A stretch of DNA of 20,000 nt, taken from an uncultured Ignavibacteriales bacterium. GTDB lineage: Bacteria > Zixibacteria > MSB-5A5 > GN15 > FEB-12. A program made the position numbers. The stretch lies in contig CAYXJN010000005.1 of NCBI GenBank assembly GCA_964464605.1, positions 301,184 to 321,183 of the forward strand, read 5' to 3'. Shown piece by piece: positions 12,001 to 20,000 of this stretch (within the stretch, counting starts at the first letter, position 1; every line of letters begins with the position of its first letter).

Positions 12001-15000
12001 TGCGCAAATTGCGAATGACGCGGACGTCAAGCTGCTTGTGTACTATCACTTGCTTCCGGCTCCGGACGGTTTCCTTGCCCGCCGCTTGTTCTCTAACGGC
12101 GTCAATGATGTCAGAAAAGGGGACTGGACAATGGCCGAAGACGGCAGCCTCTACACCCTTCCACTCGGTTCGGATAACGTCCGCATCGGTCGCATTGAAT
12201 AAAGAGGAGAGTGATGAAAACGAACCGGTCGATCTGCGAGAAGTTAGCGCGCGATCGACCGGAAAAGATGACGTACTTCCCGGTGATGCAAGTTTTAGCA
12301 AGAATGCTTTTGTGAATAATTTATTGAAGAACATTCTGTGATCTGAAAGAACTCTCTTTGTCTCAAGAAAGTTGCTCCCCCAACAGGACGTTCTTAGAAC
12401 TTTTGAGGGATTCATTAAGTATATTTTAGCTGCTTGACTATCTCAGGGTATGAGATCCACCACATGCGTTTCGCAACTGGACTCTCGAATTTGCCGCTTG
12501 AGATTCTTTTGCCGAAACATAAATCCCAGGATCATGCTTCGCAAGTATGACCTCCTGATTGTGACAAGAGTAACAATCGGTGGTTGATTGAAAGTGACCG
12601 TCAATGGGGCAAAAATAAAAGTCTTTCATAAAAGCACTCAATCTTGTAAGGTTTGGTATAACTTATAGTTATACCAAACCAACTACGACTCGCTTAGTCC
12701 TGTTTTTACCATAAATTCCTTCTGCTTTTAGGTCGATAATATTGAGATGAAGATTAGATATGCATATCTGCCGTGTGGCGGCAGGCTTCTCTCATAAGAA
12801 CGAGTCGGGAAATAGGAGAATGTCCTTTGCCTATGAGTATGGACCGTGCATCCGCAGTCAACATGCCCCAGTCATCTATGAGTGGTTCAACTAATGTGCA
12901 GAAACAGCGACAACATCGCTGGGTGTCATGGTGCATCTACCTGATTTCCATTTGCCTGCTCACTTGGTTATTTGTTGATGGAGCGTCATATTATTTGACT
13001 CCTTATAATGAACGGCCATTTCACCCGGACTATCGCGAACTTCGTCCGGCCGGGTCACGCGGACTTATGTTTGGAATAATCGGAGCGAGCATGATGGTAC
13101 TCATGCTTATTTATTCGGTCAGAAAACGGACGAAGGCACTTGGCGGCAAAATCCCGCTTCGGAGCATGCTCAATGTCCACATATACTGCGGGATCATAGG
13201 CCCGCTCTTTATTGTGCTGCATACATCGTTCAAAGTTCAGGGATTAGTTGCCGTCAGTTTCTGGTCCATGGTTGCGGTTGCCTTAAGCGGTTTCTTCGGT
13301 CGGTATCTTTATTCGCAGATTCCAAGAAACATCCAGGGAAATGAGCTTGGCCTGAAAGAAATCGAACAGGAAAGCACAGCGATGACGAAGACTCTTAAAA
13401 CTCGCTTCAATCTTGATGATCCGATCCTTCAACAGATAGAATCGATCTTCTCACGAGAGTTAATTCACACCCAGCGCGGCACCATCAGGTCTATCGTGAC
13501 TCTCATGTTCGATGATCTTATTCGACCATTCACGCGACGAAGTCTTTGGAGAAAGCTGCGAAGAATAATCATCTTACCCAAGTTGCAATTCCAGGATTTG
13601 TTTGAACTATCTTTCAAGCGGACGCTTTTGCGGAGGCGACTTGCCGCCCTGGCGAATGTTCAAAAGCTCTTTCACTACTGGCATGTTATCCATAAACCGT
13701 TCGCGATTATTATGTATCTCATTATGTTTGTGCATATCGGCGTTGCCTTATGGATGGGGTACGCTTGGTTCAACTGAATACAGGTTCAACATGAACTTTC
13801 GGAATATCGGAGTTCTGGTCATGATGTTGCTTTTGTCTGAAGTAGCAGTCGTACAGGCACAACTCTCGCCGGGTGAATTGCACAAATCGCATGCCTTTCT
13901 GGACGGCGTTGAGAATTGTACTAAGTGCCATGGCACCGATCAAAAATTGGTAGCAGACAATTGCCTCAAATGCCATGCGACTATCGGCGAAGAGCTTGTA
14001 TCTCAAACCGGGCTGCATGGAAAACAGCAATATAAAGACTGTCAGCTCTGTCATGTCGAGCATCATGGGCGCGACTTTGCTCTGATTCACTGGAAAGAAG
14101 GGGAATTGAATTTTGATCACTCGCTTACCGGCTATAGGCTGGAAGGGAAGCATGCATCAATTGATTGCCGATCCTGTCATCAAAAGAAGCTCCTTGTTGC
14201 GGCGTCGAAGCTGTTAGAACAAAAAATCACTCTCGCAAAAACCTTTCTGGGCTTGAGCAACGAATGCAAGAACTGCCACTTTGATGAACATCGCGGACAA
14301 TTGAATGAAACCTGCGGCAACTGCCATTCAAGTGATGACTGGAAACCGACGAAAGGGTTTGATCATGCAAAGACAGTATTTCCATTGGTCGGAAAGCATG
14401 CAGATGTTTTCTGCGCAAAGTGCCATCTCACGCAATCGGATGGTTCAACATCAGATGACGGGCAGTTCGCTAAATTCACTAAAATAGCGCATGATCAGTG
14501 CACCGACTGCCATACCGACGTACACAACGGAAAGCTCGGAGCAAACTGCATGAATTGCCACAGTGTGGATGGCTGGCATGTTGCCAACCGAGCCGAATTC
14601 GATCATAGCAAAACGAGATATCCGCTTAACGGAAAACATGCGGCGGTTGCTTGCGATAAATGCCATATCCCGGGAAAAGAGCGAGGGAAACTGAAGTTTG
14701 AAAAATGTCAGGATTGCCACGCCGATTTTCACAAGGGAGAGTTTGCCTCAAGAAATTCAAAAGGAGCCTGTGAGGAATGCCACACGGTCGGCGGATTTTC
14801 TCCTTCACTGTTTACCATTGCGCTGCATGAGGAGAGCAAGTATCCGTTGCGTGGCGCACATCAGGCCGTTCCCTGCATAGCTTGCCATGTTGAGCCGACC
14901 AAGGGAACACAAAAGAAAAATCTTCATTTCGAATTTGCATCGACACAGTGCTTCGCTTGTCACAAAGACCCGCACCGGGGAGAAGTTACTAAATATGTCG

Positions 15001-18000: not shown

Positions 18001-20000
18001 TTCAGTTCGGCCATTCGTTTTGGTCTTAGCTATGATAATCGCACCAATTACTGGACGCTTGAAACGAGATCATTGGTCGATAGCATATTCGACGACCGCC
18101 TTCGGCAGGGGGCTCGCGCACAGCTCGATCTCAGACTTCCCCTGCGTGTGCAAACATCCTATTCTTTTGGATTTCGCGAACGGGAGGGTGATTCTGATCC
18201 TACCCTCACTCATTCTGTCTATGTTAACCGGTCAGGACTTATTCGAAGAACAATCACCGCAAGTGTTCAATGGAGTTCGTTTGACGGCCCGTTTGAACAG
18301 GGGAGGAATTATTCGGCGCAGGTTGGTGACTACTTGCTGCCTCAGGTATATGCGTCAGTGTCGTATGGCGGCTATGAGTATGGTCTTACGACTGAAAATG
18401 TCTGGCGTCGAAATCACAGGATTTCATTATCAACACAGGTCGATTTTGCTCGTCGCTATTCTCTCAGCGGCTCAATCGAATTCGACAATGGGGATGATCT
18501 GAAGGGAACGCGATTCTTAACCGAGCTTGGCTATCGGTTCTAAGAATTCCTGTACAAACAGAAAAGCATATGGAACAATTACTCATCTGGATAGCGGTCG
18601 CGATTGTCATTCTTATCATAATCATCCCGTATTTTTTTCAGTTTCGAAAGCAGCAGAAAGTTGTCGCTGAGCGAAAGAAGGAAGCTCAGGCAATGGGGTT
18701 CGATCGTCCCCGCGCGCAATATCCAATGGTTGACCGTGCTGTTTGCATCGGTTGCGGTGCCTGCGTGGAAGCATGTCCGGAAGGGGACGTGCTTGGGGTA
18801 GTATGGGGTATTGCCGAAGTTATCAATGGGGAGCGTTGTGTTGGCCATGGCCACTGCGAAAAAGCATGTCCGGTTGGTGCGCTAAAAGTCGGTCTGGGTG
18901 ATATAACCAGCCGTCCGGATATCCCGATGCTTAACAGCAGCTATGAAACAAATGTGCCTGGATTGTTTATCGTCGGCGAGCTTGGTGGTATCTCACTCAT
19001 ACGGAACGCTATTTCACAAGGCCAAACAGCAGTCGAAGCAATTGCTTCTCGTTGCCGAGGCAACTCCAATGAATCAATCACTGATGTCATGGTTGTCGGC
19101 GCTGGGCCAGCGGGCCTTTCCGCTGCTCTTACTGCTATTCAACACAAGCTCTCATATGTCTTCATTGATGAACGTGAAGTTGGCGGTGCGATTCTGCACT
19201 ATCCGAGAAAGAAGCTGGTGATGACCCAGCCGGTGCAGATTCCATTGTATGGATGGTTTCGGGAAACTGAGTATTCGAAGGAGTATCTCATGGAAACATG
19301 GGACACAATTATTAGGCAATTCGGAATCAAGATACGCACGAATGAAAGACTCGAAACAATCCAACAGTTGGGAGATCTGTTTGAAGTGCATACTTCAAAT
19401 GGCGTCTATATGTCGAGACATGTCGTTCTCGCTTTAGGTCGGAGAGGTACACCCCGAAAATTGGAAGTGCCGGGAGAGGAATCTTCAAAGGTTCTGTACA
19501 CTCTGATAGATACTCGCTCGTATCAGGGGAAACAGATGCTTGTCGTGGGAGGAGGCGATAGCGCTGTTGAAGCAGCCGTCGGTCTTGCAAAACAGAAGGG
19601 AAATACCGTCACGATTTCATATCGTAAGAACAGTTTCTTCCGGGTAAAGAAAAAAAATGAAGACGCAATCAATAAGTTCATCGCTGAAGGGAAAGTTGTC
19701 CCGATTTTTGATTCGCAGGTCACAGAAATTCGTGAGAGATGTGTTGCTTTAGAAACAAAACAAGGGATTCAGGAAATCCCCAACGACTTTGTACTCGTGC
19801 AAATTGGTGGTATTCCACCGTTCGAGCTCTTGCGAAGTATGGGTATTGCTTTTGGCGGCGAAAGTCGCAGCTTGCACGAACAGGCCCTACCGTTGCTGAC
19901 ATAACCCCTGTATCTGCTTACTATATATGTAGTTGAAATTCAATTGCTCCCGAGGCAGGACTCGAACCTGCGACCCGCTGATTAACAGTCAGCTGCTCTA

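What a model noticed while it worked through the whole genome (the two positions that open the first line are those of the whole stretch)
12833..20000. Five-gene outer-membrane electron conduit with 20-heme and 19-heme cytochromes missed by the tables
g01531-g01535 encode, on one strand and in this order, a five-helix inner-membrane protein, two paralogous cytochromes with 20 and 19 CxxCH sites, a 538-aa protein ending in the outer-membrane barrel signature ...GYRF, and a membrane-anchored Fe-S/FAD reductase; none of the first four has a row in the family tables. I read it as a self-contained porin-cytochrome wire for extracellular electron transfer that links cytoplasmic reductant to minerals, of a make-up different from Mtr and Geobacter Pcc clusters. 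It gives a concrete candidate for the metal respiration long inferred for Zixibacteria.
Evidence so far: CxxCH count over all 2471 proteins: g01532 20, g01533 19, next highest 5. Pfam at E<=0.05: Cytochrome_C7 1.8e-19 and 3.7e-17, Cytochrom_CIII, MtrC/MtrF domain II/IV 6e-13 and 4e-10; g01531 weak Ferric_reduct/DUF4405 (E 0.004); g01534 none. Signal peptides, TM helices and the C-terminal F were read in call 69; the two cytochromes are each other's only paralogs. Upstream: sigma-54 activator g01526, NHLP-type peptide g01527, barrel-like g01528.
(Added by a program. Inside this text positions count along the whole contig: contig position 301,184 is position 1 of the stretch shown here. "Call 12" and the like, gene names such as g00115 and contig names such as C1 are that model's own, and its searches are not shown. 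The text may have been shortened before it was handed on; [...] marks where a part breaks off. The agent that wrote the report below was given it as the finding of a first reader that could run no searches.)

Follow-up and report, generated by a model that had tools for sequence, protein, structure and literature searches.

The report
PCC3-like trans-envelope electron conduit
Five tightly packed genes in this Zixibacteria genome look like a complete electron wire from cytoplasmic NAD(P)H, through two giant multi-heme cytochromes and an outer-membrane barrel, to the outside of the cell; the same little-studied system also occurs in other phyla and in one cultured bacterium.

Summary
Window 12833-19904 (+) carries five co-directional, partly overlapping genes.

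- A: 314 aa, five TM helices.
- B: 558 aa, signal peptide, 20 CxxCH.
- C: 487 aa, signal peptide, 19 CxxCH.
- D: 538 aa. It models as a plug-less 22-strand outer-membrane barrel with a small N-terminal beta domain.
- E: 444 aa, with a TM anchor, 2x[4Fe-4S] and an FAD/NAD(P) domain.

The closest published thing is the bioinformatically defined "PCC3" porin-cytochrome cluster of iron oxidisers (He et al. 2017). A carries its signature: two Hx13H motifs on TM3 and TM5, and SGxxG on TM4.

New here:
- The five genes are syntenic in 37 of 40 loci fetched from the phylum.
- C is strictly modular, with 10+3n hemes (10 to 73).
- E is fused to A in Anaeromyxobacteraceae. A-family proteins elsewhere sit beside, or are fused to, other Fe-S or NAD(P)H reductases.
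- A cultured Emticicia plasmid carries all five genes.

Best reading: a two-component NOX-like inner-membrane module that feeds a periplasm-spanning cytochrome and a barrel-threaded extracellular heme wire. It would export electrons without the quinone pool.

Function, direction and acceptor are inferred. I could not test homology to proteobacterial PCC3. I rate it a new variant of a known kind.

The parts
12650..12680 (.). Perfect palindrome GGTTTGGTATAACT-TAT-AGTTATACCAAACC, about 150 bp upstream of A. Candidate operator; function unknown.
   Evidence: 0 matches in 200 shuffles. It is unique in the genome. It is not conserved upstream of the orthologous clusters.
12833..13777 (+). A: 314-aa inner-membrane protein with 5 TM helices and a ~125-aa helical cytoplasmic insert between TM4 and TM5. 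Proposed di-heme b-type transmembrane electron carrier (PCC3-type IMP).
   Evidence: H116x13H130 on TM3, S152GFFG on TM4 and W283x3H287x13H301 on TM5. All four His and both Gly are invariant in 47 sequences. AGGAG lies 12 nt before the ATG. Model pLDDT 90. Ferric_reduct and DUF4405 hits are weak. The family has 2502 representatives.
13791..15467 (+). B: 558-aa secreted 20-heme c-type cytochrome, Lys-rich, 27.9 aa per heme. Proposed periplasm-spanning wire.
   Evidence: It has 20 hemes in 32 of 33 intact orthologs. All CxxCH columns are conserved. A profile against PDB gives only weak hits: MtrF 8.6e-9, Hmc, GSU1996-type 3ov0 at 4.7e-7, 6r2q_A at 1.6e-5.
15464..16927 (+). C: 487-aa secreted 19-heme cytochrome, Ser/Thr-rich and Lys-poor, 25.6 aa per heme. 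It consists of a 7-heme head, three 72-aa tri-heme repeats and a 3-heme tail. Proposed barrel-threaded extracellular wire.
   Evidence: Orthologs have 10+3n hemes in 26 of 26 single-ORF cases. No Cys precedes the first CxxCH, so there is no lipobox.
16927..18543 (+). D: 538-aa outer-membrane protein. It has a signal peptide, a six-strand N-terminal beta domain (26-96), a disordered linker (101-129) and a 22-strand barrel (136-538). It ends in GYRF.
   Evidence: AlphaFold model pLDDT 85.5. The best structural matches are the 22-strand barrels of TonB-dependent transporters, without their plugs: 5t3r_D at Z 19.3, rmsd 4.2, 360 residues aligned. Foldseek finds PapC/FimD and Occ porins. Pfam, NCBIfam and PDB sequence searches find nothing.
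18570..19904 (+). E: 444-aa protein with an N-terminal TM anchor (4-22, followed by positive charges), a 2x[4Fe-4S] ferredoxin domain (~53-107) and a TrxR/YpdA-like FAD + NAD(P)H domain (172-432) without a redox CxxC. Proposed cytoplasmic electron-input module.
   Evidence: It is 42% identical over 409 aa to the N-terminal part of the E-A fusion protein P0353.
19945..20000 (-). tRNA-like 3' fragment cut by the contig end. It marks the end of the operon.
   Evidence: The sequence contains GGACTCGAACC, the reverse complement of a T-arm. Read depth from 19957 is 30-100 times that of the operon in all four runs, with many loose ends there. ARAGORN calls no tRNA, so this is unverified.

Best explanation
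The operon encodes a trans-envelope electron-export conduit of the PCC3 kind with its own NAD(P)H input.

Proposed path:
1. Cytoplasmic NAD(P)H reduces the FAD of the membrane-anchored protein E.
2. Electrons pass through E's two [4Fe-4S] clusters.
3. They reach the two b-type hemes held between TM3 and TM5 of A. Together E and A form a split, NOX/MsrQ-like transmembrane module.
4. They enter the 20-heme periplasmic cytochrome B, which is long enough to bridge the periplasm.
5. They reach the 19-heme cytochrome C. Its 10-heme core sits in or at the plug-less 22-strand barrel D, and its 72-aa tri-heme repeats extend outside the cell.
6. They end on an unidentified extracellular acceptor.

Shown here: gene content, motifs, the barrel fold, conservation and synteny, the modularity of C, the E-A fusions, and the pairing of A-family proteins with Fe-S/NAD(P)H reductases.

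Inferred: cofactor binding by A, the locations of B and C, the threading of C through D, the direction of flow, the independence from quinones, and the acceptor.
For: (1) Architecture.
- All five parts carry the right topogenic signals.
- D models as a 22-strand barrel with no plug.
- Both cytochromes have about 26-28 aa per heme.
- Each has 26 His outside the CxxCH motifs, enough for bis-His ligation of every heme.

(2) PCC3 signature in A. It has 5 TM helices, SGxxG on TM4 and Hx13H on both TM3 and TM5. All six key residues are invariant in 47 sequences. This matches the description in He et al. 2017 (passages).

(3) Conservation.
- D is found in 98 of 285 genomes of the phylum at E<=1e-3, 85 of them at E<=1e-80.
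- A is found in 80 of 285 at E<=1e-20, 77 of them at E<=1e-84.
- By my tally of the two tables, all 77 genomes with a strong A match also have a D match.
- Of 40 fetched loci, 37 hold the five-gene set: 33 in the order A-B-C-D-E and 4 as E-A-B-C-D.

(4) Fixed versus variable length.
- B has 20 hemes in 32 of 33 intact orthologs.
- C has 10, 16, 19, 22, 25, 28, 31, 46, 52, 55, 58, 70 or 73 hemes, that is 10+3n in 26 of 26 single-ORF cases.
- Motif spacing is near-identical (within 1-2 residues) in the 11 orthologs printed.
- This fits a fixed periplasmic span and a variable outside reach.
- C is Ser/Thr-rich and Lys-poor, as He et al. report for extracellular PCC3 cytochromes.

(5) Coupling of A and E.
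- P0353 (742 aa, an Anaeromyxobacter MAG) is E-like (42% identity, 1e-102) fused to A-like (26%, 1e-26).
- P0355 carries the same precomputed Pfam domain set.
- The other 8 of the 10 longer homologs of A carry 4Fe-4S dicluster (Fer4_11-type) domains.
- On 3 proteobacterial plasmids I inspected 4 modules in which a '2Fe-2S cluster-binding' gene, an A-like gene and a c3-type cytochrome gene follow one another. The two 2Fe-2S proteins I scanned hold FAD_binding_6, NAD_binding_1 and Fer2.

(6) The whole system recurs outside the phylum.
- Anaeromyxobacteraceae locus L074 has [E-A], B with 20 hemes (38% identity), a 10-heme C-like gene, a 26-heme cytochrome and a D-like gene (hhalign 98.4%, 8e-15). 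L073 has the same genes as far as a 14-heme cytochrome, but no D-like hit.
- Emticicia oligotrophica DSM 17448 plasmid pEMTOL02 has ccsA, A, E, B (23 hemes), C (40 hemes, same head spacing) and D.

(7) Weak hint of expression. Two exact-match contigs from one metatranscriptome run lie on 15329-15548 and 16258-16522.
Against: - No experiment exists for this or any PCC3-type cluster that I saw.
- The fold of A matched nothing convincingly. Foldseek found no match at E<=1e-3. The only membrane di-heme cytochrome in the VIA list, CybB 5oc0, scores Z 7.5, which is within the noise for helical proteins. A's Pfam hits are below the cut-offs.
- C has no lipobox and no recognisable secretion tag, and its tail is only ~10 aa after the last heme. 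Its extracellular location rests on analogy and on the length argument.
- He et al. proposed a quinone-active role for this kind of membrane protein, and I cannot exclude it.
- The genome also has a cbb3 oxidase 6.5 kb upstream. Near-identical DNA is found in sludge, bioreactor and aquaculture samples. The ecological need for mineral reduction is therefore unclear.
- Two of the four Anaeromyxobacter-type E-A fusions (L071, L072) have no B, C or D homolog next to them. The E-A module is therefore not tied to this conduit alone.
Confidence: 0.55

Rival explanations
1. The outer part of the conduit is the same, but the inner-membrane step is coupled to quinones. A would be a quinol:cytochrome c oxidoreductase (or quinone reductase), as He et al. 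proposed for the PCC3 membrane protein. E would be accessory, for example regulation, repair or a second input. The path would then be a true respiratory branch.
For: He et al. 2017 liken the two Hx13H motifs to the cytochrome b of bc1 and of hydrogenase, which react with quinones (passages). The MsrQ paper reports a bound ubiquinone in a related membrane hemoprotein (abstract). PCC3 of Gallionellaceae is described without an E-like gene.
Against: E travels with A in 36 of 36 loci where A is seen. It is adjacent to A in the E-A-B-C-D variants and in Emticicia, and fused to A in Anaeromyxobacteraceae. Other A-family members are paired with, or fused to, other Fe-S or NAD(P)H reductases. I identified no quinone-site motif.
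Confidence: 0.2
2. The conduit works inward. It takes electrons from Fe(II), reduced minerals, cathodes or partner cells, as proposed for PCC3 in iron oxidisers. It would feed them to the respiratory chain, for example to the cbb3 oxidase encoded upstream.
For: PCC3 was discovered in Fe(II) oxidisers and is discussed as an uptake route. A cbb3 oxidase cluster (ccoNO, ccoP, ccoG, fixH) lies at 691-5560 in the same window. Earlier papers suggest iron oxidation for Zixibacteria.
Against: The cbb3 genes are not part of the conserved unit. An NAD(P)H/FAD/Fe-S input module fused to A makes sense for outflow. Inward transfer to NAD(P)+ from Fe(II) would run against both redox potential and membrane potential (inference). 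All hemes can be bis-His, which usually means low potential (general knowledge). Anaeromyxobacter is known as a metal reducer (recalled).
Confidence: 0.1
3. It is not a trans-outer-membrane wire. B and C stay in the periplasm as an electron store or as the donor for a periplasmic reaction. D would be a porin or an export/anchoring protein that carries no electrons.
For: The location of C is not shown. Small A-like modules on proteobacterial plasmids have a periplasmic c3 cytochrome and no barrel, and they sit in copper-resistance islands.
Against: C and D are translationally coupled (TGATG). They stay adjacent in all 40 loci, including the 3 loci that hold only a C-like and a D-like gene. A C of 70-73 hemes is hard to place in a periplasm if it is extended (inference). 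The barrel has no plug and is as wide as a TonB-dependent transporter.
Confidence: 0.07

Closest known systems
PCC3 porin-cytochrome c gene cluster (He et al. 2017, Front Microbiol, PMC5566968; Gallionellaceae survey PMC9900912). Bioinformatic definition only.
   Same: It has the same four parts:
- an outer-membrane barrel;
- a very heme-rich, repeat-built, Ser/Thr-rich 'extracellular' cytochrome of variable length (10-35 hemes in Gallionellaceae, up to 85 elsewhere);
- a 'periplasmic' cytochrome of about 21 hemes (20 here);
- a ~300-aa membrane protein with 5 TM helices, SGxxG on TM4 and Hx13H on TM3 and TM5.

   Different: - A fifth conserved gene, E (TM anchor, 2x[4Fe-4S], FAD/NAD(P)H), is not described for PCC3.
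- The barrel has 22 strands. PCC3 porins were predicted with up to 42 transmembrane segments.
- C follows a strict 10+3n rule.
- The hosts are Zixibacteria, Calditrichota-labelled MAGs, a Cytophagales plasmid and Anaeromyxobacteraceae, not Proteobacteria.
- The first motif in the window's A reads MxxxH rather than WxxxH, though W is present in at least 90% of the family.
- Sequence homology to the proteobacterial proteins could not be tested.
MtrCAB / MtoAB / PioAB (Shewanella type)
   Same: The principle is the same: a multiheme cytochrome inside an outer-membrane barrel, with an outer cytochrome. The minimal form of C has 10 hemes, as MtrA does (MtrA recalled). A profile of B weakly matches MtrF and chain A of 6r2q.
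   Different: - None of 46 D-family members hits Pfam MtrB_PioB.
- D has 22 strands, against 26 in MtrB (recalled).
- The DmsE/MtrA model TIGR03508 scores 46 bits against a cut-off of 192.
- There is no CymA-type quinol dehydrogenase in the cluster.
- Heme counts are 20 and 19.
Geobacter Pcc (OmaB-OmbB-OmcB) and Ext clusters
   Same: A porin gene lies beside multiheme cytochromes. c7/c3-type heme domains are present. FeGenie reported Geobacter-like porin-cytochrome operons in a Zixibacteria genome (passage).
   Different: - The 8-heme plus 12-heme lipoprotein make-up (recalled) is not found here.
- C has no lipobox.
- ExtN and ExtO NCBIfam models score 42 and 41 bits against cut-offs of 200.
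- D hits no NCBIfam model.
- OmbB itself was not compared.
NOX / ferric-reductase-domain superfamily, especially the two-component MsrQ plus cytosolic NADH oxidoreductase system (abstract of PMC12525009)
   Same: A membrane hemoprotein takes electrons from a cytosolic NAD(P)H flavoenzyme and hands them to a periplasmic partner. Hx13H pairs lie on TM3 and TM5, as He et al. note for the ferric reductase domain. A-like genes on plasmids are annotated 'iron reductase'.
   Different: - A has 5 TM helices and a long cytoplasmic helical insert.
- Its Pfam Ferric_reduct score is 17.5 against a cut-off of 28.
- The dehydrogenase is TrxR/YpdA-like with two [4Fe-4S] clusters, not FNR-like.
- The acceptor is a 20-heme cytochrome, not O2 or MsrP.
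Polymers of c7-type tri-heme domains (Geobacter GSU1996 type, PDB 3ov0)
   Same: Both use repeated ~72-80-aa tri-heme units in a chain. Both B and C hit Pfam Cytochrome_C7. A profile of B matches 3ov0 over about 200 residues at E 4.7e-7.
   Different: A single-sequence search finds no PDB relative at E<=0.01. Each repeat of C holds three non-motif His (DPxH, FxH, TGxH), which suggests bis-His ligation throughout. C reaches up to 73 hemes and is coupled to a barrel.

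Membership tests
PCC3 cluster (He et al. 2017) | Conserved ~300-aa inner-membrane protein with 5 TM helices, SGXXG on TM4 and WX3HX13H on TM3 and TM5 | tested here: met
   A is 314 aa with 5 hydrophobic helices. It has H116x13H130, S152GFFG and W283x3H287x13H301. The His and Gly residues are invariant in 47 sequences. One deviation: M112 stands in place of the first W.
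PCC3 cluster (He et al. 2017) | Periplasmic multiheme cytochrome with about 21 hemes and a low aa:heme ratio | tested here: met
   B has 20 CxxCH motifs, 27.9 aa per heme and a signal peptide. It has 20 hemes in 32 of 33 intact orthologs. The periplasmic location itself is not testable here.
PCC3 cluster (He et al. 2017) | Second, very heme-rich, repeat-built, Ser/Thr-rich cytochrome predicted to be extracellular | tested here: inconclusive
   Composition and repeats fit: 10.3% Thr, 9.7% Ser, 72-aa tri-heme repeats, 10-73 hemes in orthologs. The location is not testable with these tools.
PCC3 cluster (He et al. 2017) | Outer-membrane beta-barrel (porin) gene in the cluster | tested here: met
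   22-strand barrel model with pLDDT 85.5. Z 19.3-16 to the 22-strand barrels of TonB-dependent transporters. C-terminal ...GYRF.
PCC3 cluster (He et al. 2017) | Sequence homology of the four proteins to the proteobacterial PCC3 proteins (e.g. of Sideroxydans lithotrophicus ES-1) | not tested
   I could not obtain a reference sequence. Two earlier attempts with alignments failed. None of the names carried by a minority of D's 71 sequence homologs is proteobacterial.
MtrB/PioB porin family | Match to Pfam MtrB_PioB | tested here: not met
   0 of 46 D-family members hit it at E<=0.05. D itself has no Pfam or NCBIfam hit.
MtrA/DmsE decaheme family | TIGR03508 above its cut-off | tested here: not met
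   B scores 46.3 bits and C 21.9 bits, against a cut-off of 192.2.
TonB-dependent transporters | 22-strand barrel with an N-terminal plug domain | tested here: not met
   The barrel size matches, but the matched chain ranges in the rows I read start after the plug. The N-terminal 70-aa domain gives only weak FlgT_C hits, in 6 of 46 members. No TonB-receptor or Plug family appears among D's Pfam hits at E<=0.1.
Ferric reductase domain / NOX superfamily | Match to PF01794 above its cut-off, or a clear fold match; bis-His pairs on TM3 and TM5 | tested here: inconclusive
   The motif is met. PF01794 scores 17.5 bits against 28, and DUF4405 17.9 against 26.7. Foldseek finds nothing at E<=1e-3. CybB 5oc0 at Z 7.5, rmsd 3.3, 132 residues aligned is the only lead.
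YpdA / thioredoxin-reductase-like flavoproteins (for E) | Curated NCBIfam cut-off; a redox-active CxxC in the case of TrxR | tested here: not met
   TIGR04018 scores 171.6 bits against 339.9, and TIGR01292 92.6 against 343. E has no CxxCH motif. By my reading of the sequence and of the invariant Cys columns, all its conserved Cys lie in the ferredoxin domain. E shares the fold class but is a distinct Fe-S-bearing, membrane-anchored family.

The most novel reading that the evidence does not exclude
A quinone-independent, two-component NOX-like machine (E+A) pushes NAD(P)H electrons across the inner membrane. They enter a fixed-length 20-heme periplasmic bridge and then a length-adjustable heme wire of 10+3n hemes (up to ~73). 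The wire is threaded through a new, plug-less 22-strand barrel family. The system is shared by Zixibacteria, Calditrichota-labelled MAGs, a Cytophagales plasmid and Anaeromyxobacteraceae. In aerobic or micro-oxic hosts its acceptor may not be minerals at all. It could be O2 at a distance, humics or toxic metals, which would make it a general redox-balancing or extracellular-reductant device. Its reach would be tuned by repeat number.
Probability: 0.33. Interest if true: 0.8.

Novelty: new variant of a known kind. Interest (0 to 1): 0.62.

Why it matters
Extracellular electron transfer outside Shewanella and Geobacter is known mostly from gene lists.

This cluster offers a complete, compact and widely conserved candidate pathway for about a third of the sampled Zixibacteria. 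It comes with three testable features:
- an NAD(P)H-fed inner-membrane entry that would bypass the quinone pool;
- a periplasmic cytochrome of nearly fixed length;
- an outer cytochrome whose length changes only in 3-heme, 72-aa steps.

The same system sits on a plasmid of a cultured, harmless bacterium, Emticicia oligotrophica DSM 17448, so the idea can be taken to the bench.

The link between this membrane-protein family and Fe-S or NAD(P)H reductases also suggests how the uncharacterised PCC3 and PCC4 clusters of iron oxidisers may connect to the cytoplasm.

Tried and rejected
- Complex prediction on A and E, with alignments A2 and A3, 2 hemes and 2 [4Fe-4S] clusters, gave no verdict (score 0.01 and 0.00; controls not run). 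I use it neither for nor against binding.
- Fold searches with the A model gave no match. Foldseek against PDB found 0 matches at E<=1e-3. VIA wide gave a top Z of 8.3, all generic helical hits.
- The search for related loci with alignments A1 and A2 failed because no stretch was conserved enough.
- Supplementary Table 4 of He et al. gave only its legend. I could not see PCC3 porin sizes or gene orders, and they may bear on the comparison.
- No sigma-54 promoter was found upstream of A. Matches to TGGCAC-N5-TTGCW in the window were no more than chance (10 against 11.4 expected), and none lies in 12203-12832.
- The sigma-70 and terminator scans were at chance level.
- No palindrome is conserved upstream of the orthologous clusters.
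- tblastn of B against plasmids found only Emticicia.
- In the metatranscriptome run, A, D, E and the upstream spacer had no cover. Contigs cannot show absence.
- I considered a thiol-relay role for A+E in cytochrome maturation (DsbD/CcdA-like) and rejected it. A has no conserved Cys. By my reading of its sequence, E has no redox CxxC outside the ferredoxin domain.
- I considered a T9SS or lipoprotein route for C and found no support. Its tail is ~10 aa after the last heme, and no Cys precedes the first heme motif.
- The listing of cluster members on ten distant A homologs gave almost no names.

Full report
**What is there.** The window is the last 20 kb of contig C5 of a 2.82-Mb, 18-contig genome that the genome search rates 100% complete. 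Five genes lie on the + strand from 12833 to 19904.
- A: 12833-13777, 314 aa.
- B: 13791-15467, 558 aa.
- C: 15464-16927, 487 aa.
- D: 16927-18543, 538 aa.
- E: 18570-19904, 444 aa.

B/C overlap as ATGA and C/D as TGATG. The A-B gap is 13 bases and the D-E gap is 26 bases. B has 20 CxxCH motifs and C has 19. A six-frame scan of the whole genome gives 20 and 19, then 5, 5, 4, 4. The contig ends 96 bases after E. The last ~55 bases look like the 3' part of a tRNA gene on the other strand. Read depth there is 30-100 times that of the operon in four public runs, although ARAGORN calls nothing. The operon therefore ends with E.

**The organism.** D's homologs include proteins that NCBI labels Candidatus Zixiibacteriota. 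One of them, P0005, comes from a contig of 150,262 bases. That is the length of contig G059:C32, which belongs to a genome in the same family as the window's genome. The Zixibacteria assignment is thus supported indirectly.

**The parts.**

*A.* It has five hydrophobic helices and a ~125-aa basic, helical insert between TM4 and TM5.
- It carries H116x13H130 on TM3, S152GFFG on TM4 and W283xxxH287x13H301 on TM5. These four His and two Gly are invariant in an alignment of 47 diverse homologs.
- The family is large and unnamed. It has 2502 representatives at 50% clustering with E<=1e-3, and 2052 hits with a profile.
- The model is confident (pLDDT 90) but matches no solved fold convincingly.

*B and C.* They have 27.9 and 25.6 residues per heme. 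Each has 26 His outside the motifs, enough for bis-His ligation of every heme.

*D.* It models with pLDDT 85.5.
- It has a six-strand N-terminal beta domain, a disordered linker and a 22-strand barrel.
- The best structural matches are the barrels of 22-strand TonB-dependent transporters, without their plugs (5t3r_D at Z 19.3, rmsd 4.2, 360 residues).
- Foldseek puts the PapC/FimD ushers first.
- D hits no Pfam, NCBIfam or PDB sequence. None of 46 family members hits MtrB_PioB, and 6 of 46 weakly hit FlgT_C.

*E.* It has an N-terminal TM helix followed by positive charges, two [4Fe-4S] motifs and a TrxR/YpdA-like FAD plus NAD(P)H domain. It scores well below the curated cut-offs of those families.

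**Conservation.**
- A profile of D finds a match in 98 of 285 genomes of the phylum at E<=1e-3. By my count of the table, 85 of these are at E<=1e-80.
- A profile of A finds a match in 80 of 285 at E<=1e-20, 77 of them at E<=1e-84.
- By my tally, all 77 genomes with a strong A match also have a D match. Two of those (G113, G162) have only partial D matches.
- Ten genomes have a strong D match but no A match. Four belong to one genus that carries a two-gene form. The other six are fragmented or incomplete assemblies, or have the hit at a contig end.

I fetched 40 loci from 39 genomes. They were chosen for long contigs and for spread over families, so they are not a random sample. Of these 40:
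- 37 hold the five-gene set. One of them, L054, is cut inside B by the contig end.
- 33 of the 37 have the order A-B-C-D-E and 4 have E-A-B-C-D.
- 3 hold only a C-like cytochrome (35-48 hemes) and a D-like barrel.
- The window's upstream neighbours that I searched for (the 265-aa barrel-like protein, DJ-1 and MBL) appear in none.

**Fixed and variable wires.** B is in one piece in 33 of the 37 loci. It has 20 hemes in 32 of them and 17 in one.

C is a single ORF in 26 loci of the A-B-C-D-E type. Its heme counts there are 10, 16, 19, 22, 25, 28, 31, 46, 52, 55, 58, 70 or 73, always 10+3n. In the 11 orthologs I printed, the spacing of heme motifs is the same to within 1-2 residues:
- a 7-heme head (36, 16, 16, 35, 19, 25);
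- n copies of a tri-heme unit (32-33, 15, 25; about 72 aa);
- a 3-heme tail (35, 15, 28) that ends ~10 aa later.

The window's C has n=3. Each unit carries three extra His (DPxH, FxH, TGxH). Two of its units are 58% identical in protein and 60% in DNA, so they are not recent copies. In 7 loci C is split into several ORFs. Three of these (L037, L039, L054) have a separate 10-heme gene next to D. The four E-A-B-C-D loci do not follow the 10+3n rule (22, 27, 21 and 14+3 hemes).

C is Ser/Thr-rich and Lys-poor, and B is Lys-rich.

A cytochrome of fixed length next to one that varies sevenfold is what a fixed periplasmic gap and a free outer reach would give. That is inference.

**The inner-membrane step.** A search for longer relatives of A gave 10 proteins.
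- Two, P0353 and P0355, combine ferredoxin and pyridine-nucleotide oxidoreductase domains with the A domain.
- Eight carry 4Fe-4S dicluster (Fer4_11-type) domains.

P0353 (742 aa) aligns with E over residues 30-430 (42% identity, 1e-102) and with A over 443-739 (26%, 1e-26). It comes from an Anaeromyxobacter MAG.

On three proteobacterial plasmids (Sphingobium, Bradyrhizobium BTAi1 with two copies, Variovorax), short A-like genes lie between a gene annotated as a 2Fe-2S cluster-binding protein and a c3-type cytochrome. These modules sit in copper-resistance islands. The two 2Fe-2S proteins I scanned hold FAD_binding_6, NAD_binding_1 and Fer2.

So the A family keeps company with three different kinds of Fe-S reductase, two of which carry NAD(P)-binding domains. 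This is why I prefer an NAD(P)H-fed module over the quinone-active cytochrome b that He et al. suggested. The module would resemble NOX or the MsrQ system, in which a membrane hemoprotein takes electrons from a cytosolic NADH oxidoreductase (abstract of PMC12525009). I cannot exclude the quinone route.

**Outside the phylum.**
- Anaeromyxobacteraceae locus L074 has [E-A fusion], B with 20 hemes (38% identity to the window's B), a 10-heme C-like gene, a 26-heme cytochrome and a D-like barrel (hhalign against the D profile 98.4%, 8e-15). L073 has the fusion, B with 20 hemes (40%), a 10-heme C-like gene and a 14-heme cytochrome, with no D-like hit.
- Two further E-A fusions, L071 and L072, have no B, C or D next to them.
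- Plasmid pEMTOL02 of the cultured Emticicia oligotrophica DSM 17448 carries ccsA, A-like (36% identity, same motifs), E-like (39%), B-like (23 hemes, 34%), C-like (40 hemes = 10+3x10, same head spacing, 42%) and D-like (538 aa, 22%, 3e-13).
- Calditrichota-labelled MAGs carry A and D homologs.
- The protein atlas points to unnamed look-alike clusters in Acidobacteriota, Gemmatimonadota, Myxococcota and Bacteroidota. These are leads only.

**Comparison with what is known.** The closest published system is PCC3 of He et al. 2017, of which I read passages. It comprises a porin, an extracellular cytochrome (median 34 hemes), a periplasmic cytochrome (median 21) and a ~300-aa membrane protein with exactly the motifs found in A. 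The Gallionellaceae survey (passages) gives 21, 24 or 27 hemes for the periplasmic part and 10-35 for the outer part.

The present cluster differs in four ways:
- the conserved fifth gene E;
- the 22-strand barrel family;
- the 10+3n rule;
- its hosts.

It is not Mtr and not the Geobacter Pcc type (see the membership tests).

Earlier papers proposed other conduits for Zixibacteria: MtrAB-like genes in RBG-1 (Castelle et al. 2013, passages), Geobacter-like porin-cytochrome operons (FeGenie, passage), and mtrAB in vent MAGs (passage). I ran full-text searches for Zixibacteria with multiheme and porin, PCC3, Zixibacteria with extracellular electron transfer, Calditrichaeota, Anaeromyxobacter with porin-cytochrome, and Emticicia with multiheme. 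None of the passages I read describes this five-gene cluster. The library is incomplete and I read only passages, so prior description cannot be excluded.

**Expression and habitat.** Near-identical DNA occurs in runs from 8 studies labelled bioreactor, activated sludge, sludge, aquaculture or wastewater. Twelve rows may be the source sample. One biofilm metatranscriptome holds two exact contigs, on 15329-15548 (across the B/C junction) and on 16258-16522 (in C). This is a weak hint of transcription, because DNA carry-over is possible.

**Supporting capacity in the genome.** It has two matches to the cytochrome c assembly family PF01578 and two secretins.

**Verdict.** The interpretation as a self-contained envelope-spanning electron conduit is well supported at the level of architecture and comparative genomics. 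It belongs to the PCC3 kind rather than being without precedent. Its NAD(P)H entry, modular outer wire and barrel family make it a new variant. Function, direction and acceptor remain to be shown.

Noticed in passing
window 12650-12680: A perfect 14+14-nt palindrome with a 3-nt spacer lies ~150 bp upstream of A. It is unique in the genome and absent upstream of the orthologous clusters. It may be a strain-specific operator.
   Followed up: partly
window 8672-8969: A sigma-54-type promoter match (TGGCACACCGATCGCA, 1 mismatch) lies 13 nt upstream of an 89-aa Os1348-family NHLP-clan peptide gene (NF038399, 1.3e-15). Both are divergent from the sigma-54 activator at 6377-8503 (-). They are followed by a 265-aa barrel-like protein and by DJ-1-like and MBL-fold genes. 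This looks like a sigma-54-controlled RiPP-like unit, unrelated to the conduit.
   Followed up: partly
window 691-6285: A cbb3-type oxidase cluster with fused ccoN-ccoO (714 aa), ccoP, ccoG, fixH and a DsbD_2-family membrane protein. It is not conserved next to the conduit in other genomes.
   Followed up: partly
L048, L049, L050 (G077:C2, G076:C1, G074:C1): A two-gene relative of the system: a 35-48-heme C-like cytochrome directly followed by a D-like barrel, without A, B or E. G077 has both this form and the five-gene form.
   Followed up: partly
L077, L078, L079 (Sphingobium, Bradyrhizobium BTAi1 and Variovorax plasmids): A recurrent three-gene module sits inside copper-resistance islands (multicopper oxidase, CopB). 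It consists of a gene annotated as a 2Fe-2S cluster-binding protein, a short A-like membrane protein and a c3-type cytochrome of ~240-285 aa. The two 2Fe-2S proteins I scanned hold FAD_binding_6, NAD_binding_1 and Fer2. It may supply periplasmic reductant for metal handling.
   Followed up: partly
window 16927-18543 (D), residues 26-96: The N-terminal beta domain of D has an invariant Cys77 within an HSASC motif and an invariant Y38/G42. It gives weak FlgT_C hits in 6 of 46 family members. Its role (docking of B, or a gate for the barrel) is unknown.
   Followed up: no
L031, L037, L065, L039, L040: In several genomes B or C is split into two or more overlapping ORFs. These could be frameshifts in long repeats, assembly errors or real pseudogenes. 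I did not examine them.
   Followed up: no
window 12833-19904, public runs: DNA nearly identical to the operon occurs in engineered-water samples from 8 studies (bioreactor, activated sludge, aquaculture, wastewater). The organism is therefore widespread in such systems.
   Followed up: partly
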